The notes under the pieces: model-generated | Told to the model about the DNA's origin: nothing | The model's input: only the letters and a program-made list of their open reading frames with translations | The model's database searches: none | In this document: one piece after another, positions 1-18,374 of the stretch | Position numbering within the stretch: position 1 is the stretch's first letter | Layout of the letters: each line of letters begins with the position of its first letter | From: a virus | Taxonomy: Duplodnaviria > Heunggongvirae > Uroviricota > Caudoviricetes | Length of the DNA: 18,590 nt | Virus record (IMG/VR): IMGVR_UViG_2703718776_000018 | Strand: one strand, 5' to 3' | Position numbers and translations under genes: made by a program

Positions 1-748
1 GGTAGTCCCTGCGGATATTTGCGATACGGGAATGCAGTCGCTGTATTTTGCGTTTCTGCTTCTGCCAGTTGTTGCTGAATTTGACCTTGCGGCTTAACTG
101 TCGCTGAAGTCTCGCCAGCTTCTTCTGGTTTTTCTGAAAACTATTTACAGGTTCAAAGACTGTGCCATCTGACAGCGTGGCGAGTTTAGCCACGCCAGCA
201 TCCAGTCCGACCATTGATGCTGAAGGGTGAACAGGAGTGGATACCTCTCTTTCTGTCTGAATACTGATGTACCACTTACCGCAGGACTGGCTGACAGTAA
301 CATTTTTCACAATACCCGTGACCTGACGGCTATTCCGGTAGCGCATCCAGCCAAGTTTCGGCAGAAAAATACGGCTGTTTTCCTGATCGAGCTTAACACC
401 CTGCGGGTAGCGGAATGCATCATTCTGTCCCCGCTTTTTGAATCGGGGAAAAGCTGCCCGATTCTGGAAGAAGTTTTTGTAAGCCCGCTCAAGGTCTTTC
501 AGTGACTGTTGCAATGGCTGTGAGGGAGAATCTTTAAGCCATTCGGTTTCAGTGTCTTTTTTCCACTCAACCAACCAGGAAGCCATTTTCGTGTAAGGGA
601 TGTATTTTTTACCGGCCTCATGATTCTCATTCTGAAGCGCCAGAGCACGGTTGAAAACGAAACGACAAGCTCCGGCAAAGCGCCTCATTTGACGCTCCTG
701 TTGACCATCTGGTTTTAACCGGAATTTGAATGACACCTGTTGTTTCAT
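1..748 (-). CDS. tnpB: IS200/IS605-family TnpB (OrfB) accessory protein, N-terminal 249 codons only; the 3' part lies beyond the window start
   Basis: Reverse-strand frame is open from the window edge to the ATG at 748-746 (own translation). It begins MKQQVSFKFRLKPDGQQERQMRRFAG, contains VGLDAGVAKLATLSDG (RuvC-I Asp box) and ends at the edge with QRLHSRIANIRRDY, both typical TnpB segments. It is absent from the ORF track because there is no stop codon inside the window. Confidence 0.85.
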   Translation of the reverse strand, partial: MKQQVSFKFRLKPDGQQERQMRRFAGACRFVFNRALALQNENHEAGKKYIPYTKMASWLVEWKKDTETEWLKDSPSQPLQQSLKDLERAYKNFFQNRAAFPRFKKRGQNDAFRYPQGVKLDQENSRIFLPKLGWMRYRNSRQVTGIVKNVTVSQSCGKWYISIQTEREVSTPVHPSASMVGLDAGVAKLATLSDGTVFEPVNSFQKNQKKLARLQRQLSRKVKFSNNWQKQKRKIQRLHSRIANIRRDY

Positions 749-847
749 GTCACTATTTTAAGCAAAAATAGCCGGGAGGAAAACTGTGCCTTATATCCCC
801 ACTATGAGGAGCGTAGGGGGCGGCACATTGGATAAGGCGTAACAGGG
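1..847 (-). mobile_element. Partial IS200/IS605-family element (tnpB-only, IS1341-like arrangement); inner boundary not resolved, somewhere in 749-847
   Basis: tnpB runs off the window edge and no tnpA lies between it and the next gene. An AT-rich hairpin (ctatttt / aaaatag, 752-770) abuts the tnpB start, as expected for a subterminal structure in this family. The boundary itself is inferred, not seen. Confidence 0.5.
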
Positions 848-3835
848 ATGAGCTTAAGCGATCAGGTGGTAATGGCCACCAGCATAGAAACGCTGATCGA
901 GCTGCTAAAGAACCTGCCCGATTATGGGCGGGTTTCGTATGTGGTGACAGCGAAGGGAGACGAGGTAAAAACAGCGTTTGATATCGTCGATGCCTCAGCT
1001 ATTTTGGTATCCAATACTCTGGATGGGAAAATTAATCCTGACTATCCCCAGGAACTTCAGCCGCGCGACCGGACCCGCGCATCCAGCCTTCTTCAGGTTA
1101 ACCAGATATCCAAAGATTTGCGGCCTGCTCAGCTTACCGATTCCGGATTATCCAGCCATGGCGCACCGATAATTGGTGAGGACAATGCAGTTGAGTCAGG
1201 TAATGGACGTACCATGGGGATCATTAAAGCCTATCAGGACGGTAATGCGGATCGGTATCGGGAGTACCTGATTGAACATGCGACCGAATTCGGCATACGT
1301 ACTGAAAAGGTTGAATCAATGACGGCTCCGGTACTGGTGCGCCGCCGGTTAACGAAGGTTGACCGCGTTCAGTTTGCCAAGGACTCAAATATTTCTGATC
1401 TTCAGGAAATGGCAGCCAGTGAAAAGGCTTTTGTTGATGCCGACAGCATAACACCGGCGATGATGGCGCTGTTTAATCCGTCAGAAAGCGGAGATCTGCT
1501 TAGCCGCAGTAATGACGCGTTTATTCGCGGATTTATGACGCAAGTTGGTGCCACACAGGCGGCTGGCCTTGTAACTGAAGATGGGCGACCAACACGGCAA
1601 CTTGTAGACCGTATACAAAACGCGATCTTTGCCAAGGCATATAAGGATGCGCGCCTGGTAAGGATGGTTGCAGAAGAACCTGATCCGGATATGCGTAATG
1701 TTCTGACGGCGCTTAATGCGGCAGCCAATGATTTTGTCCAGATGCAGGCTTTATCAGGAGAAGCGCACAAGCAGGCTGTGACAACTATTGTTGATGGCAT
1801 TGAGACAGCGGATAGCCTCGATAAAAAGGCGCTGGCGGCATTGAAAGATGCGGTAGACCTGGTAAGGCAATCGAAGGAGTCAGGCCAGCATATTACCGAT
1901 GTTATTGCTCAGGGGGATATGTTCAGCGAAATGGCCCCGGAAGTGAAAGCACTCGCGTTGTTCATCGTCGCGAATAACCGTAGCGCGAAGCGTATGGCCA
2001 CCGCCTTTAAGTTGATGGCTCAACGTATCAATGATGAGTTACAGCACCAGGGCCAGGCGCTGGGGGATATGTTTGGCGGCGGCGATGTGTCGTTACAGGA
2101 TATCCTTCGCCAGGTATCTCAGGAACTGGAAAACGAAGGTATGCAAGGGATATCCGGCGGTCTTTTCGAGTCAGCTTCCGGCGGTAGTTACAACGGTGTT
2201 GCTCCATATACCAGTTTGCTATTACATCGAGCATCCGGCATCAAAGACATTATTCATCTGATCAGGCTGCTTTCCCGTAAAGATCCCCAGGATGAACAGC
2301 TTGTACAAGTGCTTGCGCATTTTGTTCGAATGCCTGTTGCCGACGTGAAAAAATGGTGCCGATTATTCGGTATCAGCAATTCGTTACTTCGCGGCTTGTT
2401 AAATCACGCATCCTCCCTTGGGCGCGATGGCTTTGACGAGATAGCGCAGGCGATAAAAAACGGAGATATGCCACCAGCTATTGACTGGTTTTCCATTCGC
2501 CCAACCAGGGTGAAAGCATTCCTTAGCGCGGCGCATTCGGCATCACCATTGGCAGAAATGGTTCAGAGGTTGTCGCTCATATTCACAGACCATACCGCGT
2601 TGGGTGATCTGACTCTGGACGAGATGAAAGAAGCCTCCATTCAGTGGGCCGATCAACAAAATGAGGTTAACTCAGACTTCTTGCCAGCATTCAGGAAGGC
2701 CGTTAGTAAAGCGGATGATGCCCGTGGAATTCTGAAGGCATTTAAGGCATTGCAAAGTCGTGTTAATAAACATGTCGGTGATATCGATGGGGTAACGGCG
2801 GAAGGCCGGGATATCCTTAAAGAGCACGGCATAACGCCAGAGTTTATTGATGAGATCAGGACTGATATGCAGCGTGAGGTCGTATCGTCCCTGCAAATCG
2901 TAGCCAGAGCGTTGGCGGATGCTAATCCGAAGAGTGCGGCCATTGTTAACCGGGTTATTGGTGATATTGAAGCATCGGAGGGCATGGGGGCGCTGAAACT
3001 CTTCCTTTCGCGAGCGTTTAATCCTAACGGCAATATTCTCCCTGGCATTATTGGTGAGGCTAAAAAGTATGTCAGTGAAGAAGAACTTGAGCAGCTTGAC
3101 CAACTACTTAAGCGATTCTCATATAACCCGCAGACACGCTGGCAAATGAATCAGCGAAGTATGGGTTCGGTCCACGAGAAAGTGTTATCTGCCATGAACA
3201 GTGCGATCGCAAACTCATCCGTATCTGAAGAAAAAGCTCTTGAGTGGGCCGACTCTTTTATCACAGAAGAAGTGGAAGAAGCCCGCGCTGGACAGAATGG
3301 TGGGATAGACCTGCGCAAGGAACTTGCTGATATTTATCGCCTGACCGGCGGGAAAATATCGACCTTATCAAAGGTAGTTCACCACCAGGGAAGGGCATAT
3401 GCAAATCTAAATGGTGTTGTTGCTGTCAATTTGAACGATAAAAATGCAAGTGCACTGTGGCACGAGCTGGGTCATCATCTTGAGTACAGTAACCCTGGTT
3501 TGTTAGAGAAAGCCCGGTCATTCCTGAAGGCCAATGTTGAAGGGGATAAGCCATCTTTCGTTAATATCGGTGGGCGTGGCAAGCCTGAATGGTGCTTCAG
3601 ATCTCGATTGAGTAATATTTATATGGCGAAGGTATACCCGCCAGCCTCAGTAAGTAACACCGGGAAAATTCGGCAGAAATCACCGACTATTTCCAAAACG
3701 TCAGCAACGGAAGTATTCTCTATGGCTCTTCAGTTGTATCATGACAAAGAGGCCGCTGCCGCATCACTGATGAATGGTGACGGATTGCTGGAACTGTTAT
3801 TAGGTGTGGCAAAGGAGCTAAATAATGCAGATTAA
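848..3835 (+). CDS. Large 995-aa protein with an N-terminal ParB/Srx-like motif region and a C-terminal HExxH zincin-like motif; polyvalent-protein-like, possibly a virion-associated anti-defence protein (P1 Ddr-like?)
   Basis: Long uninterrupted ORF. Residues 63-73 read NPDYPQELQPR and residues ~116-127 read SGNGRTMGIIKA, with spacing reminiscent of the ParB N-terminal domain. HELGHH lies at residues 872-877 (nt 3461-3478). In-frame stop 4 codons upstream (833-835); the only SD-like sequence (TAAGG, 833-837) is about 10 nt from the ATG. Confidence 0.8.
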   Translation: MSLSDQVVMATSIETLIELLKNLPDYGRVSYVVTAKGDEVKTAFDIVDASAILVSNTLDGKINPDYPQELQPRDRTRASSLLQVNQISKDLRPAQLTDSGLSSHGAPIIGEDNAVESGNGRTMGIIKAYQDGNADRYREYLIEHATEFGIRTEKVESMTAPVLVRRRLTKVDRVQFAKDSNISDLQEMAASEKAFVDADSITPAMMALFNPSESGDLLSRSNDAFIRGFMTQVGATQAAGLVTEDGRPTRQLVDRIQNAIFAKAYKDARLVRMVAEEPDPDMRNVLTALNAAANDFVQMQALSGEAHKQAVTTIVDGIETADSLDKKALAALKDAVDLVRQSKESGQHITDVIAQGDMFSEMAPEVKALALFIVANNRSAKRMATAFKLMAQRINDELQHQGQALGDMFGGGDVSLQDILRQVSQELENEGMQGISGGLFESASGGSYNGVAPYTSLLLHRASGIKDIIHLIRLLSRKDPQDEQLVQVLAHFVRMPVADVKKWCRLFGISNSLLRGLLNHASSLGRDGFDEIAQAIKNGDMPPAIDWFSIRPTRVKAFLSAAHSASPLAEMVQRLSLIFTDHTALGDLTLDEMKEASIQWADQQNEVNSDFLPAFRKAVSKADDARGILKAFKALQSRVNKHVGDIDGVTAEGRDILKEHGITPEFIDEIRTDMQREVVSSLQIVARALADANPKSAAIVNRVIGDIEASEGMGALKLFLSRAFNPNGNILPGIIGEAKKYVSEEELEQLDQLLKRFSYNPQTRWQMNQRSMGSVHEKVLSAMNSAIANSSVSEEKALEWADSFITEEVEEARAGQNGGIDLRKELADIYRLTGGKISTLSKVVHHQGRAYANLNGVVAVNLNDKNASALWHELGHHLEYSNPGLLEKARSFLKANVEGDKPSFVNIGGRGKPEWCFRSRLSNIYMAKVYPPASVSNTGKIRQKSPTISKTSATEVFSMALQLYHDKEAAAASLMNGDGLLELLLGVAKELNNAD

Positions 3836-4145
3836 AATCGCAGCGCCATTAGGCGGAGATGCCATTATCGAATTTGATGATAATGAAGAAGTTTCCGGGC
3901 GTTTAAGCATTATCTCCGGTGACATTACCGAGGACATGATCGCTGAAGCCATAGCTGGGGCAAATCCCAATAGCTATATGGGATTCGTTAACACCCTTGA
4001 TGCTCCCGCAAGTGATGTTCTCCGAACGCTGCATCTTTACGCTGGCTGGTTTGTTGATTGGCCAGCAGTAGATGGTGGCGATGAGGATGATGATGACGAT
4101 GAAGAGGTTTTTAGTGATGAAACAGTAAACCAACTCTTGTATTGA
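3825..4145 (+). CDS. Small, very acidic 106-aa protein translationally coupled to the 995-aa gene
   Basis: Strong SD AAGGAG 7 nt upstream of the ATG at 3825. Overlaps the upstream stop by 11 nt. About 25 Asp/Glu against 4 basic residues, with a C-terminal run DGGDEDDDDDEEVFSDE. Confidence 0.7.
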   Translation: MQIKIAAPLGGDAIIEFDDNEEVSGRLSIISGDITEDMIAEAIAGANPNSYMGFVNTLDAPASDVLRTLHLYAGWFVDWPAVDGGDEDDDDDEEVFSDETVNQLLY

Positions 4146-4274
4146 CAGGAATTGGCATAGAATTGATTGTTCAAATTTCATCCATCACATAGACGACTTC
4201 ATGTTATTTGCCTGATAATTATGGCCTTAATAACCCATGTATATCTTTTGGGTTATATTCTTATCTTTAACAAG

Positions 4275-4320
4275 GTTATAAGAGCGACAATGATAAATTT
4301 ATCACTATCGCTCTTATAAC
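4275..4320. repeat. 46-bp near-perfect palindrome: 13-bp perfect arms (GTTATAAGAGCGA / TCGCTCTTATAAC) enclosing a 14-bp perfect inner palindrome TGATAAATTTATCA; possible bidirectional terminator or protein-binding site
   Basis: Read directly from the sequence; only 2 mismatched positions across 46 bp. Sits between the convergent 106-aa (+) and 95-aa (-) genes. Confidence 0.8.
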
Positions 4321-4348
4321 TCTTTGTTAGCTATAGCTTTAAACAAAT

Positions 4349-4636
4349 TTAGTTTTGAGGCAATGCAACAAAAGTCAGCTCTTGATCTTTGATTAATGCT
4401 TTTGTTTGTTTGGATGTAATTCCCACTTTAGTTTTTACATCATTGTGGAGCTTCTTATACGCTTTTATTTCATCTGCTGTATATCGGAAGCCATTTGCAC
4501 TGTTACTGGACAGTTGAAGTGCGATTACGTCATCACTGACACCCGCATCGCTTAGCTTAGCTATGCGGGTAATAGTGTGGCCTGCGCGAGTGTTTGGGGT
4601 GGATATTTTGTCTAAGAAATTGTTCAGTTTTTCCAT
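4349..4636 (-). CDS. Hypothetical 95-aa protein in an AT-rich cassette; possible HTH-like segment
   Basis: ATG at 4636 with SD GAGGT 8 nt upstream on the reverse strand. Bounded by the palindrome at 4275-4320 and the terminator at 4857-4884. Local GC is clearly lower than the flanks. The segment TITRIAKLSDAGVSDDVIALQL loosely resembles an Xre-type HTH. Confidence 0.65.
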   Translation of the reverse strand: MEKLNNFLDKISTPNTRAGHTITRIAKLSDAGVSDDVIALQLSSNSANGFRYTADEIKAYKKLHNDVKTKVGITSKQTKALIKDQELTFVALPQN

Positions 4637-4856
4637 TGTTTACAACCTCTTACTTGAGTTTATTGCCAGTAGAATTGCCACTATTCTTTTGCCTCAACGA
4701 ATCACAATGTACTGGAATAAGAAACTATGAGCAATACTTACGCTTTGCGAATACAGAAGATGAATAATCAACTTATTACTAAAATGTTAATAATATTATT
4801 CTGTTACATAGTGTTCGCTATAACAATCGGGAGTTGAATGCTAATTCAATAAATAA

Positions 4857-4884
4857 AGAACCCGCCAATTGGCGGGTTCTTTTT
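4857..4884 (-). terminator. Rho-independent terminator (10-bp stem AGAACCCGCC/GGCGGGTTCT, loop AATT) with U-rich tracts on both sides
   Basis: Perfect GC-rich hairpin directly after the stop of the 262-aa reverse-strand gene (stop 4883-4885); followed by TTTATTTATT on the reverse strand and TTTTT on the forward strand. Confidence 0.8.
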
Positions 4885-5671
4885 AATCACTTTCCACTTC
4901 TCCCGTGGTGTTTTCTTGCAGTTCTGTTAATGCAGCACGACATAGGTTCCGGGCATTGGCTATAGCCACACTTTTGACTTCATCCGTCATCGTGCAGGTA
5001 ATGTACTGATCTAGTTCTTCATCGCGGATGATGCTTTTGCCAATCAGAAACTGTATTTGCCAGAGCAGATCGGCATCCATAATCAGAATTTCTGCCGGGC
5101 CTTCAGGGCCAGCCGGGAAGGAAACATAAGACTGTTTGCCCAGGCCGACAACTCGACAACTTGCTTCAAGAATTGCGCGCTTGAGGTCTGACTTTATAAC
5201 GGAAACAGGTTGATTTTCACCAGTGATTACGCCGTTGACATGGAAAGGCATGTAGCTTGAAATTCGCTCTACTTTCCATACGCCAGCAAGCGATCCTTCA
5301 TGCAGCACAATGGGGGTAACCGCGAGTTTCATCTCACCATATAACTGCTGGCAGATAGCTGGATTGCTGAATACATCCAAAGGTTCACACTCAAACAGCG
5401 GCGCAATCTGCATGAGGTCCATCATGGTCATCCCTGGGGTACGAGCAGTAATGAATCTGCGCATACCAGTATCCATTGCGCTCCAGATTGCTACACCATG
5501 CTTTTTGCTCACTTCTTCAGTAAAGCCAAGGTGGCACATGATGGTTTTTTCGATAGCCAGATCAGAGATAGAAACCGTTTCGCCTGGCACTCCATCATTA
5601 TTGACGGTCACTTCGACACTCTGGCCATTACGTAGGCGGTATTGAATGGTTTTAGTATTTTGTGCTGTCAT
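4883..5671 (-). CDS. Hypothetical 262-aa protein downstream of ssb; function unknown
   Basis: Uninterrupted ORF with ATG at 5671, ending at a strong terminator. No motif recognisable by eye. Confidence 0.75.
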   Translation of the reverse strand: MTAQNTKTIQYRLRNGQSVEVTVNNDGVPGETVSISDLAIEKTIMCHLGFTEEVSKKHGVAIWSAMDTGMRRFITARTPGMTMMDLMQIAPLFECEPLDVFSNPAICQQLYGEMKLAVTPIVLHEGSLAGVWKVERISSYMPFHVNGVITGENQPVSVIKSDLKRAILEASCRVVGLGKQSYVSFPAGPEGPAEILIMDADLLWQIQFLIGKSIIRDEELDQYITCTMTDEVKSVAIANARNLCRAALTELQENTTGEVESD

Positions 5672-5868
5672 AGTCTTTTCTCTGCTTAAAAACTGATGTA
5701 TTGCGCCTTCAGGTTGGTTAGGAATGTTTTCCCACCAGCGAAAGCAATATCTCGGGGTGTTCTATTCGTTAAAAGCGCGTGCCATTGCCAACTTTGGCGT
5801 TTTTGAGCGAGTTCGTGCTTTTGTCGGCGTCTGGACCACCGCTTTTTTTTCAGTCGTTTTTTACACAT

Positions 5869-6357
5869 TCAAAACGGAATATCGTCGTCAAAGTCCATTG
5901 GAGGTTCGTTATTAGCGTTGCTCTGAGGTTTACCGCCACCACTGTATTGCTGGTGGTTTTGAGGTTGGTTTGATTGCCCCCAGCCATTTGTGGACTGTGA
6001 ATCGTCGCGACGAGCGCCGATCATTTGCATGGTGCCGCCCTGGCTGACGATAATTTCCGTCGTGTAACGTTCTACACCGGCGTCATCTGTCCACTTACGG
6101 GTTTTAAGTTTCCCTTCGATGTAGACCTGAGAACCTTTTCGTAAATACTCACTCGCAATTTCAGCAAGTTTTCCGAACAAAACGACTTTATGCCATTCTG
6201 TTTGCTCTTTCTGTTGGCCCGTTTGCTTGTCGCGCCATGATTCATTCGTTGCGATGCTGAGTCTTCCGACCGCGCCGCCATTTGGTATATACCTGATCTC
6301 CGGGTCTTGCCCCAGGGTGCCAATCAGGATGACTTTGTTTACACCGCGTTGTGCCAC
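5869..6357 (-). CDS. ssb: Single-stranded DNA-binding protein (162 aa), GTG start
   Basis: N-terminus [20 protein letters not shown].. is a typical SSB OB-fold start. Gly/Gln-rich linker and the canonical acidic tail [14 protein letters not shown] 7 nt before the GTG at 6357. Confidence 0.92.
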
Positions 6358-6376
6358 TTATCTTACCTAATAAAAT

Positions 6377-6393
6377 AAAATAATTAGAGCAAC
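6377..6393 (-). promoter_or_regulatory. Candidate C1-repressor-type operator (reverse strand reads GTTGCTCTAATTATTTT) over the presumed ssb promoter
   Basis: 14/17 match to the P1 C1 operator consensus ATTGCTCTAATAAATTT as I recall it, including a perfect TTGCTCTAAT core. Lies 20-36 nt upstream of the ssb GTG. Confidence 0.4.
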
Positions 6394-6526
6394 AATGTAT
6401 ATCTTTGAAACGTAGCTAACAAGTGATTTGCATTATCCTGTGCCTTCTAAAGGGATCGAGTCAGTCGGTATTGGCTGTGAATGGGTGTTTGTCCTGGAGC
6501 GTAAAAAATTCGCTTATGAGGTCTTT

Positions 6527-7084
6527 ATGAAGGGAAAAACAGCCGCAGGAGGCGGTGCAATTTGCGCTATCGCGGTGATGATTACCATCGTGATGGGTAA
6601 TGGCAATGTGCGAACCAACCAGGCGGGGCTTGAGCTGATTGGTAACGCTGAAGGTTGCCGACGTGATCCATACATGTGCCCGGCGGGGGTATGGACTGAC
6701 GGGATCGGTAATACACACGGGGTAACGCCGGGTGTGCGAAAAACCGACCAGCAAATCGCCGCTGATTGGGAAAAGAATATCCTGATCGCTGAACGCTGTA
6801 TTAATCAGCACTTTCGGGGCAAAGACATGCCCGATAATGCCTTCAGTGCAATGACAAGCGCGGCATTCAATATGGGATGCAATAGCTTACGGACCTACTA
6901 CAGCAAAGCGCGAGGCATGCGAGTCGAAACGTCCATCCACAAGTGGGCGCAGAAAGGGGAATGGGTGAATATGTGTAACCATCTCCCTGATTTTGTGAAC
7001 AGTAACGGCGTGCCCCTGCGAGGTTTAAAGATTCGCCGTGAAAAAGAACGCCAGCTTTGCCTGACGGGGCTGATCAATGAATAA
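6527..7084 (+). CDS. lyz: SAR (signal-arrest-release) endolysin, T4-lysozyme family, 185 aa
   Basis: Starts MKGKTAAGGGAICAIAVMITIVMGNG (Gly/Ala-rich SAR domain with Cys13), then NAEGCRRDPYMCPAGVWTDGIGNTHG carrying the Glu/Asp/Thr catalytic residues. Matches my recollection of P1 Lyz. SD GAGG before the ATG at 6527; the ORF-track start at 6428 is a TTG over-extension. Confidence 0.95.
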   Translation: MKGKTAAGGGAICAIAVMITIVMGNGNVRTNQAGLELIGNAEGCRRDPYMCPAGVWTDGIGNTHGVTPGVRKTDQQIAADWEKNILIAERCINQHFRGKDMPDNAFSAMTSAAFNMGCNSLRTYYSKARGMRVETSIHKWAQKGEWVNMCNHLPDFVNSNGVPLRGLKIRREKERQLCLTGLINE

Positions 7085-7331
7085 ACTCCGGCAGCTCCGC
7101 CGACTTTCGACAATGAAGTTATCGCTGGCGGCGATAGTTTTCGACTCGATTTTCATGGCGGTATATGTGCTCAATGAGACGTGGCCACTGGAACCGCTAT
7201 TATATGCCGGGCTTCGGCTGTGCCTGACATTTTTGAGCATGGCTGCAAGATTGATGCAGCAGAAAGAAACCGCTTCAGATTGCCCACGTCGCGCGGTGCG
7301 CAAATATATGGCACGCAGACGAAGGCGATAA
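7077..7331 (+). CDS. Candidate small membrane protein (84 aa; one or two hydrophobic helices, poly-Arg C-terminus) translationally coupled to lyz; possible lysis accessory protein
   Basis: ATG overlaps the lyz stop (ATGAATAA). Hydrophobic stretches LSLAAIVFDSIFMAVYVL and LLYAGLRLCLTFLSMAARL; tail RRAVRKYMARRRRR. Stop at 7329-7331 is followed immediately by a terminator. Confidence 0.45.
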   Translation: MNKLRQLRRLSTMKLSLAAIVFDSIFMAVYVLNETWPLEPLLYAGLRLCLTFLSMAARLMQQKETASDCPRRAVRKYMARRRRR

Positions 7332-7342
7332 TAGTTAACGAT

Positions 7343-7370
7343 AACCCCGGCAGCCGCCGGGGTTATTTTT
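7343..7370 (+). terminator. Rho-independent terminator (stem CCCCGGC/GCCGGGG, loop AGCC, then TTATTTTT) closing the lyz transcript
   Basis: Seen in sequence between the end of the lyz-coupled ORF and the convergent protease gene. Confidence 0.75.
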
Positions 7371-7375
7371 GATGG

Positions 7376-10106
<2,731 letters not shown>

Positions 10107-10172
10107 TTAATTAGAATAATTCGCATCGTGTTTGAACGGAATTTAACACTAGTCACTTGTTAAGGATTACCA

Positions 10173-13100
10173 ATGAACAAGCTATCTATGGGGGTGTTTC
10201 GCTGTTCAAGTGTCAGCGAAATATTGAAATACATTAGGGCAATAACATCTCACCGAGCGCCGATTAAATACGGCGTGGAAAAGGTGGAAGGCAAAAGCTA
10301 TGACCGACTGCGCCGGGAGGCGAATCAGAAGGCGATAGATTTGCTTAATTCACTGGTGGACGGCGCGACACTGACAGATGAACAGCGCCAGATCCTGGCT
10401 GGGTACACCGGTGAAGGCGGCATTGGCGGGTCCGTCTCCGAATATTACACACCAAAGCCGATCGCTGAAGGTGTCTGGGAGATCATGAAGCTCTACGGCG
10501 CGGACGTAGGTAACACTCTGGAACCATCGGCGGGCACCGGCGTTTTTAATGAGACAAAACCGGTTGGTACGGTGATGACTGCGACTGAGATCAGCAGTGT
10601 TTCCGGTCGTATAAACCAGTTGTTACACCCGGAAGACAGCGTACAGATTTCCCCGTTCGAACAGCTGGCTATAAGCACACCTAACGATTCATTCGACCAT
10701 GTTGTGGGTAACGTTCCGTTCGGCGGTCGTGATAACACACGCAACATCGATAAGCCTTACGCAGAAGAAACGGACATGGGTTCTTACTTCATGCTCCGCA
10801 TGCTGGACAAGATAAAGCCAGGCGGATTCATGTGCGTGATTGTGCCGCCGTCCATTGTTTCAGGTTCAAACATGAAGCGGTTACGCCTGCGCCTATCACG
10901 GAAAGCAGAATTTCTTGGTGCCCACCGCTTGCCTACCGGTACTTTTGACGCAAACGGGACCAGTACGGTCGTAGATGTGGTGCTGATGCGCAAACATCCG
11001 GCAGAGATGGCTGAGAAAATCCCCCTGGTGGATGAAAGCACTCTTGAATCAGCAAATGTGCTTTGGCCAACGTTTATTTCTGGCAAGTGGTTTGAAAAGG
11101 ATGGCCGCCGGTTTGTTCATGGCACCCAAGAAAAGGGCTTCCGGGGGCGTATTGAGGTTCGTGCCGACGGTCAGATTGATAACCAGGCTCTTAAAGCGAA
11201 GCTGATTCATCGTTTCGAAAGCCGTATCGACTGGTCTTTGCTCGATATGGCTGAACCGTCACCGACCGCAGACGTTGTTGGTGAAGGGGAAATGCGCCTG
11301 ATTAATGGCGTATGGCAAAAATATGCTGGTGGTCGCTGGATTGAAGCTGATGCCGGGAAGGAACTTAAGATCGATGCTGCCAGTTATGGCGCGGATAGCT
11401 GGGAGGCTCTTCAGCGTAACCTGACTACAACAGAAGGCCGTCTCGGCATGACATTTACCCAGATGGCAAATGTCCGCGATAAGTACACCACATCAATCAG
11501 CGACGATATGGTGCAGCTGGTGGACTGGATTAACAGCCAGCCTGAAAAATACCGTGAACGCTTGTATCGCGGGGCGATGATTGGCCGGATGTTAATTGAA
11601 TATCAGGACATGAAGGCCGCCGGGCATAGTGCTGAACAAATCGAACAGCAGCGCCTTTCTCTGGTATCCCGTTTGCAGGCAGAGATTGACCGTTTTGGTA
11701 ACCCCGGTCGCGGTCCGATAGCGAAATTATCGGGGAGCGGTGCGCGCGCCTGGTTTGCTTTCCGTGGTGCAATTAAGCTGGATGGCACTATTTCTGACGA
11801 GCTGACAGGAAAACTGGTTACGCATGATTCCAGCGCCAGTTATGACTCCACCAGCTATCAGGACACCCTGCGTTATCTCTACAGTGATCTCACTCGCGAT
11901 CCAATCCAGCTCGATGATTTCCGCCTTGCGTTTACCGGCGAACTGCCAGCCAGTGATGATGAGTTGCTTAATTTATTGGCCAGCACCCCTGGCATTGCGG
12001 TTTCACCGTATGGCGGGATTGTTCCGTTCGCCCGCGCCACCAGCGGCGACATTAACGAGATAGTGGCTCCAAAACAGGAATTCCTCGCCACGCTCCCCGA
12101 CGGTCCAGTAAAGAACAACGTCCTTAATCAGCTGGCAGCGATCGAAGAGAAGCGCATCAAGACGCCAGCAGAGAATATCCGCTTTAAGCTCAATAGCCGT
12201 TGGTTCGACCGCTCCGTCATTCTGGAGTTTTTGCAGGAAAACGGCTATCCGGATCTGCGCTATGTGCAGTCAGTGCAGCTGGAAGGCGACGAAATGGTTT
12301 CTGACACCTATCACGGTGGTGATGGTCTGTTCGTCGGGCACCGATACGGTGTCGTCCAGCGCAAGGATAAAGAAACAGGCGAGATCCGCTACGAGTGGGA
12401 CCGTAAATCAGGTGAAAACGCGACCGGGTTCCCGGCACAACTGGAAAAGTATCTCAATGGTGCGCGTATCGGTGGCAAAGATAGCGCGACGGCGAACGGC
12501 TACCGCGAGCAGATGGCACTGCTTGAGGACCAGTTCAATAAGTGGATCAAGACGCACGATCGCTACGATGAGCTGGTTGCCAAATACAACGATGTGTTCA
12601 ATAGCAATATCCCGTATGAACACTCTGGCGATCCGCTTGGGTTGAAGGGATTAAGCGGTAAGCGCCAGCCATTTGATTACCAGAATAGCGAGGTGCGCCG
12701 ACTGTCCGAAGATGGGCGCGGCATCCTGGGCTTCGGCACCGGGCTGGGTAAAACCACGACCGCGCTGGCGCTTGAGGCGTTCAACTATGAGAACGGTCGC
12801 TCCACCCGTACTGCTTATGTAGTGCCTAAAGCAGTGCTGGAAAACTGGTATTACGAAGCAAAAGAGTTCCTGAGTGAAGAGGCATTCAGTAACTACCTGT
12901 TCGTCGGTCTTGATGTGCTGATGGATGGCGATCAGATTCGCCAGGTGCCGGTGCTCGATGAGAACGGTAAACCTGTTCTTGGTACTGATGGCACTCCAGT
13001 TATGCGCGATGCTCTTAAGCTGGCAGATGAAGCCACTATCACGGCGCGGATGAACGCGATCCCGCACTCAAATTACCGTGCAGTCGTGTTTACCAAAGAA

Positions 13101-16100
13101 CAATACGCCCGCATTCCGCTACGTGATGACACCGTAGATGAGCATGCACAAGACATGCTTTATGACTTCGTTGCCGCCGGGCGCGTAGCCAGCGCAATGG
13201 ATTCCGACTCCCATCGTAAAGAGGCGGCGCGTCGCTGGGTATTGTCGGAGTATTCAGATACCGGTACCGAAAAAGCAGAGAAGTATCCGTACTTTGAGGA
13301 TATGGGCTTCGATAGTGTGATCGCCGACGAAGGTCACAACTACCGCAATAGCTATAAAAATGGTCGCGAAGCGTCACAACTGGCCTATCTGCCCACCAGC
13401 GCGGTGGCGCAATCGGCGCGGGATATGGCAATCAAAAACGCGTACCTGATGAAAAAGAATGGCGGGCGCGGGCCGGTTCTCCTGACTGCAACGCCAGTCG
13501 TTAACACCCCGATCGATGCATACAACATGCTTTCTCATGTTCTGCCGAAGGAATACTGGCAGAAGATGGGGATCTACGGTCCTGATGACTTCGTTAAATT
13601 CTTCGGCAAGACCAGGCTGGAAACGGTACAGAAAATCAGCGGTGAAGTTGAAGAAAAAATGGCGCTGGTGGGCTTTGAAAACCTTGATGCGCTGCGCGGT
13701 ATATTCCATCGCTGGGTAACGCTTAAAACGGCGGAAGACGTTAAGGATACCGTGGAGATCCCGGAGCTGGACGAACACCAGCAGGATGCACCACTTACTG
13801 AAGAACAACTGGCGGCGTATGAAGAATTGCGTCAGCAGGCGGAAGCGGCGGCCAAAGCCAACAATGGCGTAACGACCTCGGTCAATGAAGACGGCGTGAT
13901 TGAGCACGAGAAAGCCCGTCCGATCTTCTCAATAATCAGGGATATGGACCGCGTATGTACTGACATGGACCTGTACTATCGCCGGATCACCTATCGTTTC
14001 CTGCCGGAGTACGCAGATGCGGTGCAGCAGCTGGCGGACAGTTTGCCTAAACAAGCCACCAGCGAAGACGACGACAGTGATGATTCAATCACGCAGCAAT
14101 CGCAATACTCCCTGATAGATAAGGGCGAGTTTATTCAGTTGCAGGTTCCGGAAGCGTTCGAGCAGGAAGTGAATAAGCGCCTGGCCAGGTTTGGCATTGA
14201 CGAACAGACCGTAACTCACCCCGTTACGCCCAAATACGCGAAGCTGATTGCCACGCTGAAGGAGTTTTTCCCGGAAGGTAAGCAAATCATCTTCACCGAT
14301 GAAAAAACGCAGCACCAGAAGCTCAAGCGCATTATCTGCAATGCTCTTAACCTTGAACCTTCAAAGGTGGGGATACTGAATGCTCAGACGGTTGCCGAGG
14401 CAGGTAAAACCGGTAAGAAACTGAAAGCGGTTAAACCGCCGAAAGAGCTACCGGATGAACCAACAGATGCACAGATAGCGAAATACAACGAGCAAATGGC
14501 TCTGTATGACGCCTATATCGCGCAGCAAAATGAAATGTCGCTGGGCGGGCTGGAAAAGATTGCTGCCGACTTCCAGGAGGGCCGGACTCCGATCATCATC
14601 TGCAACAAAAAGGCAGAGGTGGGTATCAACCTGCATCGAGGAACGACTGACATCCATCATCTGACGTTGCCATGGACACCAGCCAGTATCGCACAGCGTA
14701 ACGGTCGCGGTGCCCGAGTTGGTTCCAACCGTGCAAGCGTTCGCGTTCACTACTACTGCGGCAAGGGTTCTTTCGATGAATACCGACTGAAGACGCTGAA
14801 GCGTAAAGCAGGCTGGATCTCCGATATCCTCCGTTCAGATAAGTCAGAAATGGAGAACGCCGACGCCAACGATATGATCGAAATGCAGATGTATACCGCT
14901 AAGGATGATGGCGAACGTCTGGCAATGATGCAGGTTCAAATGGATAAGGCGAAAGCCGCGCAACGCGCTCGCCAGAAAGAACAGGCTACTATCGACCTTC
15001 AGAACTACATCAAGGCGCAGCACGCAGCTGGTGAGGATGTGGAGGTGCTTACCGCTGAATTAGAGCGAAGAAAAGCGGAACTCGAAAAGACCACCGCCGA
15101 CGTCGCCAAATTCAAACAGGCGGTAATGGCCAAAGCAGCTGATAACGCAGACTGGAAAGCCCGCTGGGGTAGCGTCCATCACACAGACCGTACGTTGTTA
15201 GCACAGTATCGCGCGTCGTTGAAAAGCGCCATTCAGCGCAAGGCTAATATCTCTCAAGCCATCTCCCGCTATGAGAAATTATTGAACCGTACTCAGAAGG
15301 CCGCGACGGATATCAAACGCCTTCGCCCGCTGGTGGAGGATGCAATAAATAAAGGCATTCTGGATGTTGATCCTGACCTGGTTAACCATGCGAGTGAGTT
15401 CCTTATTATCGGCGATCGCTCATGGCGTGTAGGCCAATACTACGATTGTGCCGGTGATATCGTTCGCATTAAGTCGCTGGACTTCGACAGCCAGCGCGCA
15501 GACGTGGAGATTATCTTTACCTTCAAAGGTACCAAATCGGGTAACTGGGATGTGAAGACGCTGGATAAACAGGTTGATGTAACTCCCGATGAAGATGCTG
15601 TTATGCAGAAAATCAGTGGTGGCGTCTCCATCGCCGGGATTAACGACATCATTTCCTGTGACGATTTCTACCGTTTCCAGCAGCGCGGCATGATCAAAAT
15701 CACTGACTCATACGGCGTTCAGACTACAGAGTCAGGCTATAGCATTGATTTTGTTGGTACCTATACGGACCCACTGAAGCATGCGGTTTACCCGGATCGC
15801 CGTGACGGCGCGCTGAAGTCGTCAATTGCAAAATGGGTGCTTGGTATGATGTCTGAAGGGAATAACCGCCAGGTCCGTTTGGCAGAAGTATTCCTGACTG
15901 AACTGTTTGGCTCCAATTATGGCGATGTAATCGCGTCATATGGAGATACGCTATCCCCTGAAGCAATTCAGGAGAAAATAGCGGATGCGATCGCCAGAAT
16001 GCCGGAGAAAACAAGCCAGGGGGCTACTCGTAACGGGGATTCTGAACTTGAGGTCACCAATGCCATTTTCGGTACCCATGAGTTCCGGGCGTCAGATTAT

Positions 16101-16940
16101 GAGATCACCACAGCACAGTTTGGCACCATTGGCATTTACAGCAATAAAGCCGAGATCAAGCAGGCAATGGACGCAGCAAGCGCGCGTATCGCAGCAGAAC
16201 GGGAAGCCAATCTGAATCATGCAGTCGCCGCACTGACTCAATCGTGGGTAACAGCAATCAGGGAGGCCGCCACCACAGGGAAAATCACACCTGCAATTGC
16301 GGATGTCGTAAACGACGGCTCTAAATTTATGGATGCCTATCAAATGGATGCGGTGAAGTTGCCATCAGCCTATGGTCAACTCAGCTATCGCATGACCTAC
16401 AACCTGGTATCAATGTTTTCCGACCTTGCCATCCTTGGGCTGGTGGATCTTAACGAGGTTACGCCGGAATTGCTCAGCATGCGCAAGAATCATGTGGAGA
16501 TATTGCAGAGAATTAACACGGTTCTTGCCGGGCGCACCGATGAAGAGAAACAGGCCGACGCTGATCGGATAAACCTGGCCCTTGGCAACATCACGGAGGA
16601 AGAAATTGCCGCCAGAAACGAGAAACAAGAAGAGTTATCATCAATACAGGGTGATGCCACCAGCATAGCTCAGTCTCTTGGTCTGAATTATCGCGTATCC
16701 ACCGCCGACCTGAAGATGATGTACGCACCAAAATTCGCCGCTGGCGAGGTATTTGGGCTTCAGGAAGCCTCAGGCATGAAAGGCGTTCTTTTCCGTGCGA
16801 AAGACGCAATCAAGGCGAAATTCGGCGCTCGCTGGCTGCCAGCGAAGGCGAAGAACAGCGATTTCCCGGGTAACTGGTGGATTATCGAGACAAAACACAA
16901 CGTGGCGGACGTTCTGGCCGTCATCCAACAATACGCATAA
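10173..16940 (+). CDS. darB: DarB-type antirestriction protein, 2255 aa: N6-adenine methyltransferase-like domain fused to an SF2 (SNF2/DExH-like) helicase, plus a long uncharacterised C-terminal region
   Basis: SD AAGGA 6 nt before the ATG. MTase motifs LEPSAGTGVF (residues 116-125) and GNVPFGG (179-185, nt 10707-10727). Helicase motifs GFGTGLGKTT (853-862, nt 12729-12758), DEGH (1052-1055, nt 13326-13337), LLTATPVVN, QRNGRGARVG. Length equals P1 DarB as I recall it. Confidence 0.9.
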   Translation: MNKLSMGVFRCSSVSEILKYIRAITSHRAPIKYGVEKVEGKSYDRLRREANQKAIDLLNSLVDGATLTDEQRQILAGYTGEGGIGGSVSEYYTPKPIAEGVWEIMKLYGADVGNTLEPSAGTGVFNETKPVGTVMTATEISSVSGRINQLLHPEDSVQISPFEQLAISTPNDSFDHVVGNVPFGGRDNTRNIDKPYAEETDMGSYFMLRMLDKIKPGGFMCVIVPPSIVSGSNMKRLRLRLSRKAEFLGAHRLPTGTFDANGTSTVVDVVLMRKHPAEMAEKIPLVDESTLESANVLWPTFISGKWFEKDGRRFVHGTQEKGFRGRIEVRADGQIDNQALKAKLIHRFESRIDWSLLDMAEPSPTADVVGEGEMRLINGVWQKYAGGRWIEADAGKELKIDAASYGADSWEALQRNLTTTEGRLGMTFTQMANVRDKYTTSISDDMVQLVDWINSQPEKYRERLYRGAMIGRMLIEYQDMKAAGHSAEQIEQQRLSLVSRLQAEIDRFGNPGRGPIAKLSGSGARAWFAFRGAIKLDGTISDELTGKLVTHDSSASYDSTSYQDTLRYLYSDLTRDPIQLDDFRLAFTGELPASDDELLNLLASTPGIAVSPYGGIVPFARATSGDINEIVAPKQEFLATLPDGPVKNNVLNQLAAIEEKRIKTPAENIRFKLNSRWFDRSVILEFLQENGYPDLRYVQSVQLEGDEMVSDTYHGGDGLFVGHRYGVVQRKDKETGEIRYEWDRKSGENATGFPAQLEKYLNGARIGGKDSATANGYREQMALLEDQFNKWIKTHDRYDELVAKYNDVFNSNIPYEHSGDPLGLKGLSGKRQPFDYQNSEVRRLSEDGRGILGFGTGLGKTTTALALEAFNYENGRSTRTAYVVPKAVLENWYYEAKEFLSEEAFSNYLFVGLDVLMDGDQIRQVPVLDENGKPVLGTDGTPVMRDALKLADEATITARMNAIPHSNYRAVVFTKEQYARIPLRDDTVDEHAQDMLYDFVAAGRVASAMDSDSHRKEAARRWVLSEYSDTGTEKAEKYPYFEDMGFDSVIADEGHNYRNSYKNGREASQLAYLPTSAVAQSARDMAIKNAYLMKKNGGRGPVLLTATPVVNTPIDAYNMLSHVLPKEYWQKMGIYGPDDFVKFFGKTRLETVQKISGEVEEKMALVGFENLDALRGIFHRWVTLKTAEDVKDTVEIPELDEHQQDAPLTEEQLAAYEELRQQAEAAAKANNGVTTSVNEDGVIEHEKARPIFSIIRDMDRVCTDMDLYYRRITYRFLPEYADAVQQLADSLPKQATSEDDDSDDSITQQSQYSLIDKGEFIQLQVPEAFEQEVNKRLARFGIDEQTVTHPVTPKYAKLIATLKEFFPEGKQIIFTDEKTQHQKLKRIICNALNLEPSKVGILNAQTVAEAGKTGKKLKAVKPPKELPDEPTDAQIAKYNEQMALYDAYIAQQNEMSLGGLEKIAADFQEGRTPIIICNKKAEVGINLHRGTTDIHHLTLPWTPASIAQRNGRGARVGSNRASVRVHYYCGKGSFDEYRLKTLKRKAGWISDILRSDKSEMENADANDMIEMQMYTAKDDGERLAMMQVQMDKAKAAQRARQKEQATIDLQNYIKAQHAAGEDVEVLTAELERRKAELEKTTADVAKFKQAVMAKAADNADWKARWGSVHHTDRTLLAQYRASLKSAIQRKANISQAISRYEKLLNRTQKAATDIKRLRPLVEDAINKGILDVDPDLVNHASEFLIIGDRSWRVGQYYDCAGDIVRIKSLDFDSQRADVEIIFTFKGTKSGNWDVKTLDKQVDVTPDEDAVMQKISGGVSIAGINDIISCDDFYRFQQRGMIKITDSYGVQTTESGYSIDFVGTYTDPLKHAVYPDRRDGALKSSIAKWVLGMMSEGNNRQVRLAEVFLTELFGSNYGDVIASYGDTLSPEAIQEKIADAIARMPEKTSQGATRNGDSELEVTNAIFGTHEFRASDYEITTAQFGTIGIYSNKAEIKQAMDAASARIAAEREANLNHAVAALTQSWVTAIREAATTGKITPAIADVVNDGSKFMDAYQMDAVKLPSAYGQLSYRMTYNLVSMFSDLAILGLVDLNEVTPELLSMRKNHVEILQRINTVLAGRTDEEKQADADRINLALGNITEEEIAARNEKQEELSSIQGDATSIAQSLGLNYRVSTADLKMMYAPKFAAGEVFGLQEASGMKGVLFRAKDAIKAKFGARWLPAKAKNSDFPGNWWIIETKHNVADVLAVIQQYA

Positions 16941-16945
16941 CAGGA

Positions 16946-16964
16946 GCGCCCGGTTCGCCGGGCG
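16946..16964 (+). promoter_or_regulatory. GC-rich stem-loop (GCGCCCGG-TTCG-CCGGGCG) inside the ulx translation initiation region
   Basis: 7-bp stem with a TTCG tetraloop, 5 nt after the darB stop. An AGGAG lies immediately 5' of the stem and the ulx ATG 9 nt 3' of it. No U-tract follows. Confidence 0.5.
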
Positions 16965-16973
16965 TCGCATAAT

Positions 16974-17414
16974 ATGGCCACACTATCTGATACAATAAAA
17001 CCGAATAAAACATATCTTGAGGCGGTACTGCGTACGGCGTTGTTAGGAAAGACAGAAGACGAATACGTTGATTTCTTCCTGTCAGGGCTACGTGGGCGAT
17101 TACTGAAAAATCCCCGCCTGTACCGCAGCTATGGCCCATACTGGCCGGAAATTAAAAAATTATTACTGGAGCGCGGTTATGGTAATTTCGGTCGTCTCGT
17201 TGACCGTGACGTTCGCAAAATTTACCGTTATGACCGCCCGGCGCTAACACTCATAGCCGCGACGCTCTACAGCCAGGAGCGTTTTGATAATGGTCAGATA
17301 TACTCAGCCTGGCATTTACTGCCAGTGCCTGAAGAAGTTGACGACCAGGACTATGAGTTTGAGTCTTACGATTTGGAAGTTGAAGCCTTGGCACAGGCTG
17401 GAGAGAAAACTTGA
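16974..17414 (+). CDS. ulx: Ulx-like protein (146 aa), co-transcribed downstream of darB
   Basis: ORF directly after darB and overlapping the next gene start. Position and size agree with my recollection of P1 ulx (upstream of lxc). Not verifiable without a search. Confidence 0.6.
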   Translation: MATLSDTIKPNKTYLEAVLRTALLGKTEDEYVDFFLSGLRGRLLKNPRLYRSYGPYWPEIKKLLLERGYGNFGRLVDRDVRKIYRYDRPALTLIAATLYSQERFDNGQIYSAWHLLPVPEEVDDQDYEFESYDLEVEALAQAGEKT

Positions 17415-17659
17415 AAAAGCGATACTACACAGTAAAGCATGGGACGCTACGAGCATTACAAGAGTTTGCTGACAAGCATAACGTTGAGGTGCGCAGGGAA
17501 GGGGGAAGTAAAGCTCTGCGCATGTACCGTCCGGACGGGAAATGGCGGACGGTCGTCGATTTCAAAACTAACAGCGTTCCCCAGGGCGTCCGCGACCGGG
17601 CATTCGAAGAATGGGAACAGATCATCATAGATAACGCATTGCTCCTGAATGCGGATTGA
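17411..17659 (+). CDS. lxc: Lxc/Bof-like small protein (82 aa), TTG start overlapping the ulx stop
   Basis: TTG at 17411 with SD GGAGA 7 nt upstream. Overlap TTGA with the ulx stop. Followed by a terminator. Size and position consistent with P1 lxc (bof) from memory. Confidence 0.5.
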   Translation: MKKRYYTVKHGTLRALQEFADKHNVEVRREGGSKALRMYRPDGKWRTVVDFKTNSVPQGVRDRAFEEWEQIIIDNALLLNAD

Positions 17660-17669
17660 TTTATATATC

Positions 17670-17699
17670 GGGCAGTTGTAGCTGCCCGTTAAATTTTTG
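17670..17699 (+). terminator. Rho-independent terminator (stem CGGGCAG/CTGCCCG, loop TTGTAG, then TTAAATTTTT) between convergent genes
   Basis: Seen in sequence, immediately after the lxc-like stop and before the stop of the reverse-strand 196-aa gene. Confidence 0.75.
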
Positions 17700-17710
17700 C
17701 CGCTCTTCAA

Positions 17711-18301: not shown

Positions 18302-18331
18302 ATCTTGACTTACTTCACTGCGAGAGATGAA

Positions 18332-18348
18332 AAATATATTAGAGCACA
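18332..18348 (-). promoter_or_regulatory. Candidate C1-repressor-type operator (reverse strand reads TGTGCTCTAATATATTT) upstream of the 196-aa gene
   Basis: 14/17 match to the recalled consensus ATTGCTCTAATAAATTT with a perfect TGCTCTAATA core. Lies 31-47 nt upstream of the ATG at 18301. Confidence 0.4.
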
Positions 18349-18374
18349 GAGCGTTACCTTTCGAGAATATTTTG

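What the first reader, a model, noticed from the sequence alone, without database searches (positions are those of the whole stretch)
6417..6436. 10-bp box TAACAAGTGA shared upstream of lyz and the portal gene
The identical 10-mer occurs at 6417-6426 upstream of lyz on the forward strand and at 10154-10163 upstream of the portal gene on the reverse strand. Each is followed after 4-6 nt by a -10-like hexamer (CATTAT; TTAAAT), and neither region has a convincing -35. Both genes are late functions, so this may be the activator-dependent late-promoter element of this phage (Lpa-type).
Basis: seen in the sequence. Interest (0 to 1): 0.5.

Follow-up and report, generated by a model that had tools for sequence, protein, structure and literature searches.

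The report
Known P1 late promoters, LPlyz and LPpro

Summary
The window is a P1-like phage-plasmid: about 98% identical to phage P1 and 99.7% to E. coli plasmid pO26_EH031_1.

**Observation.** TAACAAGTGA occurs exactly twice, at 6417-6426 (+) and 10153-10162 (-). No shuffle out of 200 gave two copies.

**Identity.** Both copies fall on late promoters annotated in the P1 reference, AF234172. These are LPlyz (previously identified late promoter of gene 17) and LPpro. The 23-nt cores are identical to P1.

**Family layout.** All 11 annotated P1 late promoters align as AC + 9-bp inverted repeat AAGTGACTT (the "-22 region", Lpa site) + 4 nt + TAnnnT. LPhot is the one exception, with a 9-nt spacer. 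None has a -35.

**Independent test.** A matrix built only from the nine other P1 late promoters ranks the two window sites first and second. They score 22.8 and 19.4; the next site scores 11.7 and the best shuffle 18.8.

**Correction.** The family-consistent -10 hexamers are TATCCT (6434-6439) and TAAATT (10145-10140), not CATTAT and TTAAAT.

**Relatives.** Cronobacter phage JK004 keeps the element at both sites. Phage D6, whose Lpa is 31% identical, uses a different box in the same layout.

**Verdict.** Interpretation supported; already known; low interest.

The parts
6417..6426 (+). It covers positions -3 to +6 of the late-promoter element of LPlyz.
   Evidence: placed by alignment A1.
6419..6429 (+). 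Conserved Lpa box of LPlyz. AC sits at 6419-6420, followed by the 9-bp imperfect inverted repeat AAGTGATTT at 6421-6429 (the annotated '-22 region').
   Evidence: P1 annotation of the -22 region of LPlyz. Sequence identical to P1. Column conservation: A 10/11, C 9/11, then AAGTGACTT.
6434..6439 (+). -10 hexamer of LPlyz, TATCCT, 4 nt after the box. The expected start site is about 6445-6447; this is inferred, not mapped.
   Evidence: Annotated minus_10_signal of LPlyz. TAnnnT register: A2 and T6 are invariant in 11/11 P1 late promoters. JK004 keeps the same register (TACGAT).
6527..7084 (+). lyz (endolysin), the first gene served by LPlyz. lydD (7077-7331) follows it.
10153..10162 (-).
10150..10160 (-). 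Conserved Lpa box of LPpro. AC sits at 10160-10159, followed by the 9-bp imperfect inverted repeat AAGTGACTA at 10158-10150.
   Evidence: P1 annotation of the -22 region of LPpro. Identical to P1. Top hit of the leave-out matrix, score 22.8.
10140..10145 (-). -10 hexamer of LPpro, TAAATT, preceded by TGT (an extended -10-like TGn). The expected start site is about 10134-10132; this is inferred.
   Evidence: Annotated minus_10_signal of LPpro. Fully conserved in JK004.
7376..10097 (-). The prt (portal, 8388-10097) and pro (head processing, 7376-8395) operon served by LPpro.
6417..6422 (-). The opposite strand of the first six bases of copy 1 (TTGTTA) is the annotated -35 of the divergent sigma-70 promoter P2ssb. 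Its -10 is TACATT at 6399-6394. The C1 operator Ossb lies at 6377-6393.
   Evidence: P1 annotation carried over by a 1601-nt offset.

Best explanation
The two copies of TAACAAGTGA are the upstream portions of two Lpa-dependent late promoters of a P1-like phage-plasmid. LPlyz (core 6417-6439, + strand) drives lyz-lydD. LPpro (core 10162-10140, - strand) drives prt-pro.

Each promoter has no -35. It consists of a near-palindromic 9-bp box (AAGTGAyTw, consensus AAGTGACTT) centred near -22, preceded by a conserved AC. Exactly 4 nt downstream lies a -10 hexamer of the form TAnnnT.

Mechanism from the literature (not tested here): the phage late-promoter activator Lpa (gp10) binds the box sequence-specifically. 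Together with the host RNA-polymerase-associated protein SspA, it lets the sigma-70 holoenzyme start at these promoters late in lytic growth.

Shown here: sequence identity to the annotated P1 promoters, family-wide motif geometry, specificity of the motif in the window and in the P1 genome, conservation in a diverged relative, and presence of lpa in a near-identical element.

Inferred: actual Lpa binding, the start sites, and late timing in this particular element.
For: 1. The window is about 98% identical to P1 over 5400-11400. The 10-mers map onto the annotated 'late promoter LPlyz' and 'late promoter LPpro', each with its -22 region and -10 signal. The LPlyz note reads '100 pct identical to previously identified late promoter of gene 17'. 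The 23-nt cores are identical to P1.
2. An alignment of all 11 annotated P1 late promoters gives an information profile of A(-1) 10/11, C(0) 9/11, A A G T g A C T t, a 4-nt uninformative spacer (9 nt in LPhot), then T-A-n-a-a-T with A2 and T6 in 11/11.
3. A matrix trained only on the 9 other P1 late promoters ranks the two window sites first and second of about 37,000 positions. Scores are 22.8 and 19.4. The third-best site scores 11.7, and the maximum over 200 shuffles is 18.8.
4. Scanning the whole P1 genome with the degenerate pattern gives 5 exact hits and 6 one-mismatch hits. Nine of these 11 are annotated late promoters. My analytic chance expectation is about 1.5.
5. Cronobacter phage JK004 (portal 82% and Lpa 67% identical) keeps the element at both homologous positions while the flanks diverge. 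The portal site is 21/23 identical. At the lyz site the box is 10/11 identical and TAnnnT stays at 4-nt spacing.
6. The closest complete relative, pO26_EH031_1 (99.7% over window 1-18385), encodes a 'late promoter-activating protein'. It also carries P1-identical LPpac and LP26 cores.
7. [quoted passage not shown] Lpa is a sequence-specific DNA-binding activator that acts with SspA as co-activator (PMC1891329 citing Hansen et al. 2003). lyz transcription depends on Lpa (PMC8198154). [quoted passage not shown]
Against: Nothing in the data contradicts this explanation. The limits are as follows.
- lpa itself is not inside the window.
- No transcription start sites or binding data exist for this element.
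- The annotation does not label LPpro 'previously identified' as it does LPlyz, so its experimental status is unclear to me.
- Both window boxes are imperfect palindromes (3 of 4 arm pairs).
- LPlyz has the second-lowest family score.
- The primary papers (Lehnherr 1991/1992, Schmidt 1996, Lobocka 2004) could not be read here.
Confidence: 0.94

Rival explanations
1. The repeated 10-mer is a chance coincidence with no shared function.
For: A 10-mer is short, and the identity ends after exactly 10 nt.
Against: No shuffle out of 200 gave two exact copies; the mean was 0.03. Both sites are the top two hits of a matrix trained on other promoters. Both sit at annotated late promoters. Both are conserved in JK004.
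Confidence: 0.01
2. The box is a -35-like element (TTAACA / CTAACA resembles TTGACA) of ordinary sigma-70 promoters that need no activator.
For: TTAACA matches TTGACA at 5 of 6 positions and CTAACA at 4 of 6. On the opposite strand of copy 1, TTGTTA is indeed annotated as the -35 of the divergent sigma-70 promoter P2ssb. So at the lyz site these bases do double duty.
Against: The distance from that hexamer to the -10 is 12 nt, whereas sigma-70 needs 16-18. The sigma-70 scan finds no promoter on the relevant strand at either site. Conservation across the 11 promoters is strongest in AAGTGACTT, which lies where a spacer would be. The literature says late transcription requires Lpa and SspA.
Confidence: 0.03
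3. The box is a binding site for a different regulator, for example the C1 repressor or a host factor, rather than Lpa.
For: A C1 operator (Ossb) lies only about 25 nt upstream of copy 1.
Against: Ossb is a separate annotated 17-mer (window 6377-6393) with an unrelated sequence. No C1 operator is annotated at the portal site. The motif tracks late genes across the genome. It also changes together with Lpa divergence: it is kept in JK004 (Lpa 67% identical) and replaced in D6 (Lpa 31% identical).
Confidence: 0.02

Closest known systems
Phage P1 late promoters LPlyz and LPpro (GenBank AF234172 / NC_005856, Lobocka et al. 2004 annotation; gene 17 promoter from X87673)
   Same: Positional orthologues. 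The flanking genes are the same (ssb/lyz and prt/darB) and the 23-nt cores are identical in box, spacer and -10.
   Different: Only flanking substitutions. There is one base change downstream of each -10, and two changes in the nearby Ossb operator.
The other nine P1 Lpa-dependent late promoters (LPmat, LPdar, LPs, LPsit, LP23, LP26, LPpmgL, LPhot, LPpac)
   Same: The architecture is AC + AAGTGACTT + 4 nt + TAnnnT with no -35. LPhot is the exception, with a 9-nt spacer. They lie upstream of lysis, morphogenesis and packaging genes.
   Different: The right arm of the palindrome is degenerate in the two window promoters (ATTT and ACTA instead of ACTT). The upstream bases are TAAC rather than the more common TGAC or CAAC.
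Phage T4 middle promoters (MotA box at -30 plus AsiA remodelling of sigma-70 region 4). This analogy is from general knowledge and was not tested here.
   Same: A phage activator box replaces the -35 element. A good -10 is retained. A second protein acts on the sigma-70 region 4 area of the host polymerase.
   Different: The proteins are unrelated. The box is at -30 rather than -22. The co-factor is phage-encoded (AsiA) rather than host-encoded (SspA).
Francisella MglA-SspA/PigR system
   Same: An RNAP-bound protein of the SspA family is proposed to serve as the contact point for a DNA-bound activator. The P1 Lpa/SspA case is cited as the precedent (PMC1891329).
   Different: It is a bacterial virulence regulon, not a phage late switch, and it uses different DNA sites and a different activator.

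Membership tests
P1-type Lpa-dependent late promoter | A 9-bp (near-)inverted repeat matching AAGTGACTT, centred about 22 nt upstream of the start | tested here: met
   AAGTGATTT (6421-6429) and AAGTGACTA (10158-10150) each match 8 of 9 positions. They coincide with the annotated -22 regions.
P1-type Lpa-dependent late promoter | A -10 hexamer (TAnnnT) at a fixed short distance (4 nt) downstream of the box | tested here: met
   TATCCT (6434-6439) and TAAATT (10145-10140). Ten of the 11 P1 late promoters share this spacing, and A2 and T6 are invariant.
P1-type Lpa-dependent late promoter | No functional -35 hexamer at 16-18 nt from the -10 | tested here: met
   The sigma-70 consensus scan gives no hit on the promoter strand at either site. 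The only -35-like hexamer is 12 nt from the -10.
P1-type Lpa-dependent late promoter | Located upstream of, and oriented towards, a late (lysis, morphogenesis or packaging) gene | tested here: met
   The downstream genes are lyz (6527-7084, +) and prt-pro (10097-7376, -).
P1-type Lpa-dependent late promoter | Recognised by a model built from independent family members, above background | tested here: met
   The leave-out matrix gives scores of 22.8 and 19.4. The window's third-best site scores 11.7 and the shuffle maximum is 18.8.
P1-type Lpa-dependent late promoter | The cognate activator gene lpa is present in the same element | tested here: inconclusive
   lpa lies outside the 18.6-kb window. 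The 99.7%-identical plasmid pO26_EH031_1 encodes a late promoter-activating protein next to pacA, with LPpac between them.
P1-type Lpa-dependent late promoter | Transcription depends on Lpa and host SspA and occurs late; Lpa binds the box | not testable with these tools
   This is known for P1 only from the literature (PMC10695390, PMC1891329, PMC8198154).

The most novel reading that the evidence does not exclude
The Lpa recognition element may be an asymmetric 11-mer (AC + AAGTGACTT) rather than the symmetric 9-bp inverted repeat that is annotated. The upstream AC is conserved in 9-10 of 11 P1 promoters, but its mirror (GT after the box) is not (4-5 of 11). This asymmetry could be what sets promoter direction.

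In addition, the box appears to co-vary with Lpa across P1-like phages. D6, with Lpa 31% identical, uses AAATCACAnACT + 3 nt + yAnnnT at the positions homologous to LPpro, LPs, LP23 and others.

Either point may already be in papers I could not read (Lehnherr 1992; Lobocka 2004; Gilcrease & Casjens 2018).
Probability: 0.4. Interest if true: 0.25.

Novelty: already known. Interest (0 to 1): 0.08.

Why it matters
It matters little beyond correct annotation. These are the textbook Lpa/SspA-dependent late promoters of phage P1, present unchanged in a P1-like plasmid prophage.

The practical value is threefold:
- It confirms that this element has intact late-gene control signals for lysis and head assembly.
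- It fixes the register of the -10 hexamers and the expected start sites.
- It gives a simple, specific pattern (ACAAGTNAYTW-N5-A-N3-T) for marking late operons in P1-like phage-plasmids, many of which are annotated only with 'hypothetical protein'.

The comparison with D6 hints at a tractable activator/box specificity pair, but this is a side observation.

Tried and rejected
- **Primary papers not available.** I tried to read Lobocka 2004 (PMC523184), Lehnherr 1991 (PMC208978) and Gilcrease & Casjens 2018 (PMC5800970). None is held, so the published consensus and mapped start sites could not be checked directly. I relied on the GenBank annotation and on secondary statements.
- **Full-text search for the box sequence.** Searching for AAGTGACTT and similar strings returned only unrelated primer sequences.
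- **Python access to loci.** The large P1 loci (L002, L003) and D6 locus L005 were not available to Python. Whole-genome checks therefore used IUPAC pattern searches instead of the matrix.
- **One-mismatch copy at 18000-18009.** Rejected. It lies inside a SIR2-family ORF, has no -10 in register, and is not among the top matrix hits.
- **Bidirectional use of the LPpro box towards darB** (as at LP26/LPpmgL). Rejected. The reverse reading scores 10.4, which is chance level, and the darB ATG is only 15 nt from the box.
- **Pfam scan of unnamed neighbouring ORFs.** It gave nothing.

Full report
**Observation**

The 10-mer TAACAAGTGA occurs exactly twice in the window, at 6417-6426 on the + strand and at 10153-10162 on the - strand. 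In 200 dinucleotide-preserving shuffles the mean number of exact matches was 0.03, and none had two. The bases on either side of the 10-mer differ between the two copies. The identity is therefore a shared motif and not a duplicated segment. A one-mismatch copy at 18000-18009 is at chance level.

**What the window is**

Megablast places the window in the P1 group. It is 97.9-98.2% identical to phage P1 over 5400-11400. It is 99.7% identical over 1-18385 to the 97-kb E. coli plasmid pO26_EH031_1. Gene order follows P1: ddrB, hxr, two small unnamed ORFs, ssb (-), lyz and lydD (+), pro and prt (-), darB (+), ulx, lxc.

Copy 1 lies in the ssb/lyz divergent intergenic region, 101 nt before the lyz ATG at 6527. 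Copy 2 lies in the 75-nt prt/darB divergent intergenic region, 56 nt before the prt start at 10097.

**What the box is**

The richly annotated P1 reference (AF234172) marks both places as late promoters.
- LPpro is marked as a late promoter without that note.
- Each is annotated as a 9-bp '-22 region' followed 4 nt later by a -10 signal.

Read off the sequence and carried over to the window, these are:

| Promoter | -22 box | Spacer | -10 hexamer |
|---|---|---|---|
| LPlyz (+) | AAGTGATTT, 6421-6429 | GCAT | TATCCT, 6434-6439 |
| LPpro (-) | AAGTGACTA, 10158-10150 | GTGT | TAAATT, 10145-10140 |

The 23-nt cores in the window are identical to P1.

**Family anatomy**

I collected all 11 late promoters annotated in P1: LPmat, LPpro, LPlyz, LPdar, LPs, LPsit, LP23, LP26, LPpmgL, LPhot and LPpac. 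I aligned them with the two window sites (alignment A1). The per-column counts are:

| Position (box start = 1) | Conservation |
|---|---|
| -1 | A in 10/11 |
| 0 | C in 9/11 |
| 1 to 9 | A A G T g A C T t, with T4, A6 and T8 invariant |
| next 4 columns | uninformative spacer (LPhot has 9 nt here; its 5 extra columns were removed before counting) |
| -10 hexamer | T-A-n-a-a-T, with A2 and T6 in 11/11 |

AAGT-G-ACTT is the '9 bp inverted repeat' of the literature. That is two weakly conserved bases (TA), the conserved AC, the left arm and centre of the palindrome, and one base of the right arm. The exact identity stops there because the right arms differ (ATTT versus ACTA).

**Specificity**

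A log-odds matrix (positions -3 to +19) was trained on the nine P1 late promoters that are not represented in the window. It ranks the two window sites first and second among all positions on both strands.

| Site | Score |
|---|---|
| 10140-10162 (-) | 22.8 |
| 6417-6439 (+) | 19.4 |
| Third-best site in the window | 11.7 |
| Mean of the best hit in 200 shuffles | 12.8 |
| Highest hit in any shuffle | 18.8 |

The window therefore holds exactly two such promoters.

Across the whole P1 genome, the pattern ACAAGTNAYTWNNNNNANNNT has 5 exact matches and 6 one-mismatch matches. Nine of these 11 are annotated late promoters. My analytic expectation for at most 1 mismatch in 2 x 94.8 kb is about 1.5, which accounts for the two unannotated hits. 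Two-mismatch hits are at chance level according to the tool's shuffles.

**Register of the -10**

They sit 3 nt and 1 nt upstream of the register shared by the family.

Cronobacter phage JK004 (portal 82% identical) supports the annotated register. Its lyz-proximal promoter reads CAACAAGCGATTT-GGGA-TACGAT.

With the -10 hexamers ending at 6439 and 10140, start sites are expected near 6445-6447 (+) and 10134-10132 (-). These start sites are inferred and have not been mapped.

**No -35**

The sigma-70 consensus scan finds nothing on the promoter strand at either site. The TTAACA / CTAACA inside the box resembles TTGACA but lies only 12 nt from the -10. At the lyz site, the opposite strand of TAACAA (TTGTTA, 6422-6417) is the annotated -35 of the divergent, C1-controlled promoter P2ssb. 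Those six bases therefore serve two promoters.

**Comparative evidence**

| Phage | Lpa identity to P1 | Late-promoter box |
|---|---|---|
| JK004 | 67% | P1-type, kept at both homologous places |
| D6 | 30.6% | Different box, same layout |

- **JK004.** The portal site (TCACAAGTGACCAGTGTTAAATT) is 21/23 identical to the window. The lyz site keeps 10/11 of the AC + box. The surrounding intergenic DNA diverges.
- **D6.** Its portal is 50% identical. It has no P1-type box in the homologous region. Instead it carries a different shared box, AAATCACAnACT, followed after 3 nt by yAnnnT. This box lies upstream of the portal gene, a peptidoglycan hydrolase, R, pmgB and the major capsid gene. Weaker copies lie upstream of lydA and a ddrB-like gene. 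The same architecture with a different box, tracking the divergence of the activator, fits the box being the activator's site.

**The activator**

lpa is outside the window. The near-identical plasmid pO26_EH031_1 encodes a 'late promoter-activating protein' next to pacA. It also holds P1-identical LPpac and LP26 cores.

**Mechanism (from the literature, not tested here)**

[quoted passage not shown] SspA is thought to contact RNA polymerase and DNA-bound Lpa simultaneously, and does not itself bind late-promoter DNA (PMC1891329, citing Hansen et al. 2003).
- lyz transcription depends on Lpa (PMC8198154).

**Rivals**

- Chance is excluded.
- An ordinary sigma-70 promoter is excluded by spacing and by the scans.
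- A C1 or other regulator site is unlikely. Ossb is a separate 17-mer at 6377-6393, and the motif tracks late genes and Lpa divergence.

**Verdict**

The feature is the already annotated pair LPlyz and LPpro of phage P1, so novelty is nil and interest is low.

The only mildly new points are that the conserved element extends 2 nt (AC) upstream of the annotated 9-bp box, asymmetrically, and that D6 uses a different box. Both may already be published in papers not available here.

Noticed in passing
L005 (phage D6, MF356679 14599-34191 rc) 8951-8962 +, 14966-14977 -, 2661-2672 +, 6445-6456 +; L009 (D6 34100-63000) 4025-4036 -, 11401-11412 -, 20034-20045 -, 20089-20100 -: Phage D6 (Lpa 31% identical to P1 Lpa) lacks the P1 box. 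It has its own shared box, AAATCACAnACT, followed after 3 nt by yAnnnT. The box lies upstream of the portal gene, hydrolase orf16, lydA, the ddrB-like gene, R, pmgB and the capsid gene, which are the places homologous to P1 LPpro, LPdar, LPs and LP23. There is none in D6 1-14700, and D6 63001-91159 was not scanned. I do not know whether this is published.
   Followed up: partly
L004 (Cronobacter phage JK004) 14217-14239 +: JK004 has an extra P1-type box plus -10 (TCACAAGTGATCTGCTTTACGAT, matrix score 14.5). It sits 10 nt from the lyz start on the opposite strand and points towards the gene at the position of P1 ssb (JK004_114, annotated only as a hypothetical protein). It could be a late promoter for that gene or a borderline chance hit.
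   Followed up: no
window 18386-18590: The last 205 bases are the end of an IS1 element (97% identical to IS1B copies on thousands of plasmids). It is inserted into a SIR2-family gene that is intact in pO26_EH031_1. The window ORF 17711-18301 (-) is the remaining 3' part of that gene.
   Followed up: partly
window 1-748 (-): By comparison with pO26_EH031_1, the start of the window lies inside a gene for a TnpB-family RNA-guided endonuclease (IS200/IS605-type accessory protein). P1 has darA/ddrA at this position upstream of ddrB.
   Followed up: no
window 4146-5868: The gene content between hxr and ssb differs from the P1 reference. There is no IS1 and no isaB-sized ORF. Two minus-strand ORFs (4349-4636 and 4883-5671) have no Pfam match.
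   Followed up: partly
window 6377-6393: The C1 operator Ossb differs from P1 at 2 of 17 positions (operator strand GTTGCTCTAATTATTTT versus P1 ATTGCTCTAATTAATTT), including the first base. The effect on C1 control of ssb is unknown.
   Followed up: no
L003 (P1 AF234172 48001-94800) 28780-28800 - and 31332-31352 +: Two one-mismatch matches to the late-promoter pattern are not annotated in P1. One is ACAAGTGACTGGTGATAACCT, inside the 5' end of gene 7. The other is ACAAGCGATTACCGCCATCCT, inside pmgM upstream of pmgN. Their number fits the chance expectation of about 1.5, but internal late promoters are not excluded.
   Followed up: no
A1 alignment columns (positions -1, 0 versus +10, +11 of the box): The conserved AC upstream of the 9-bp inverted repeat has no mirrored GT downstream (G in 4/11, T in 5/11). 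The element is therefore asymmetric even though its core is palindromic. LPpro also has an extended -10-like TGT before TAAATT.
   Followed up: partly
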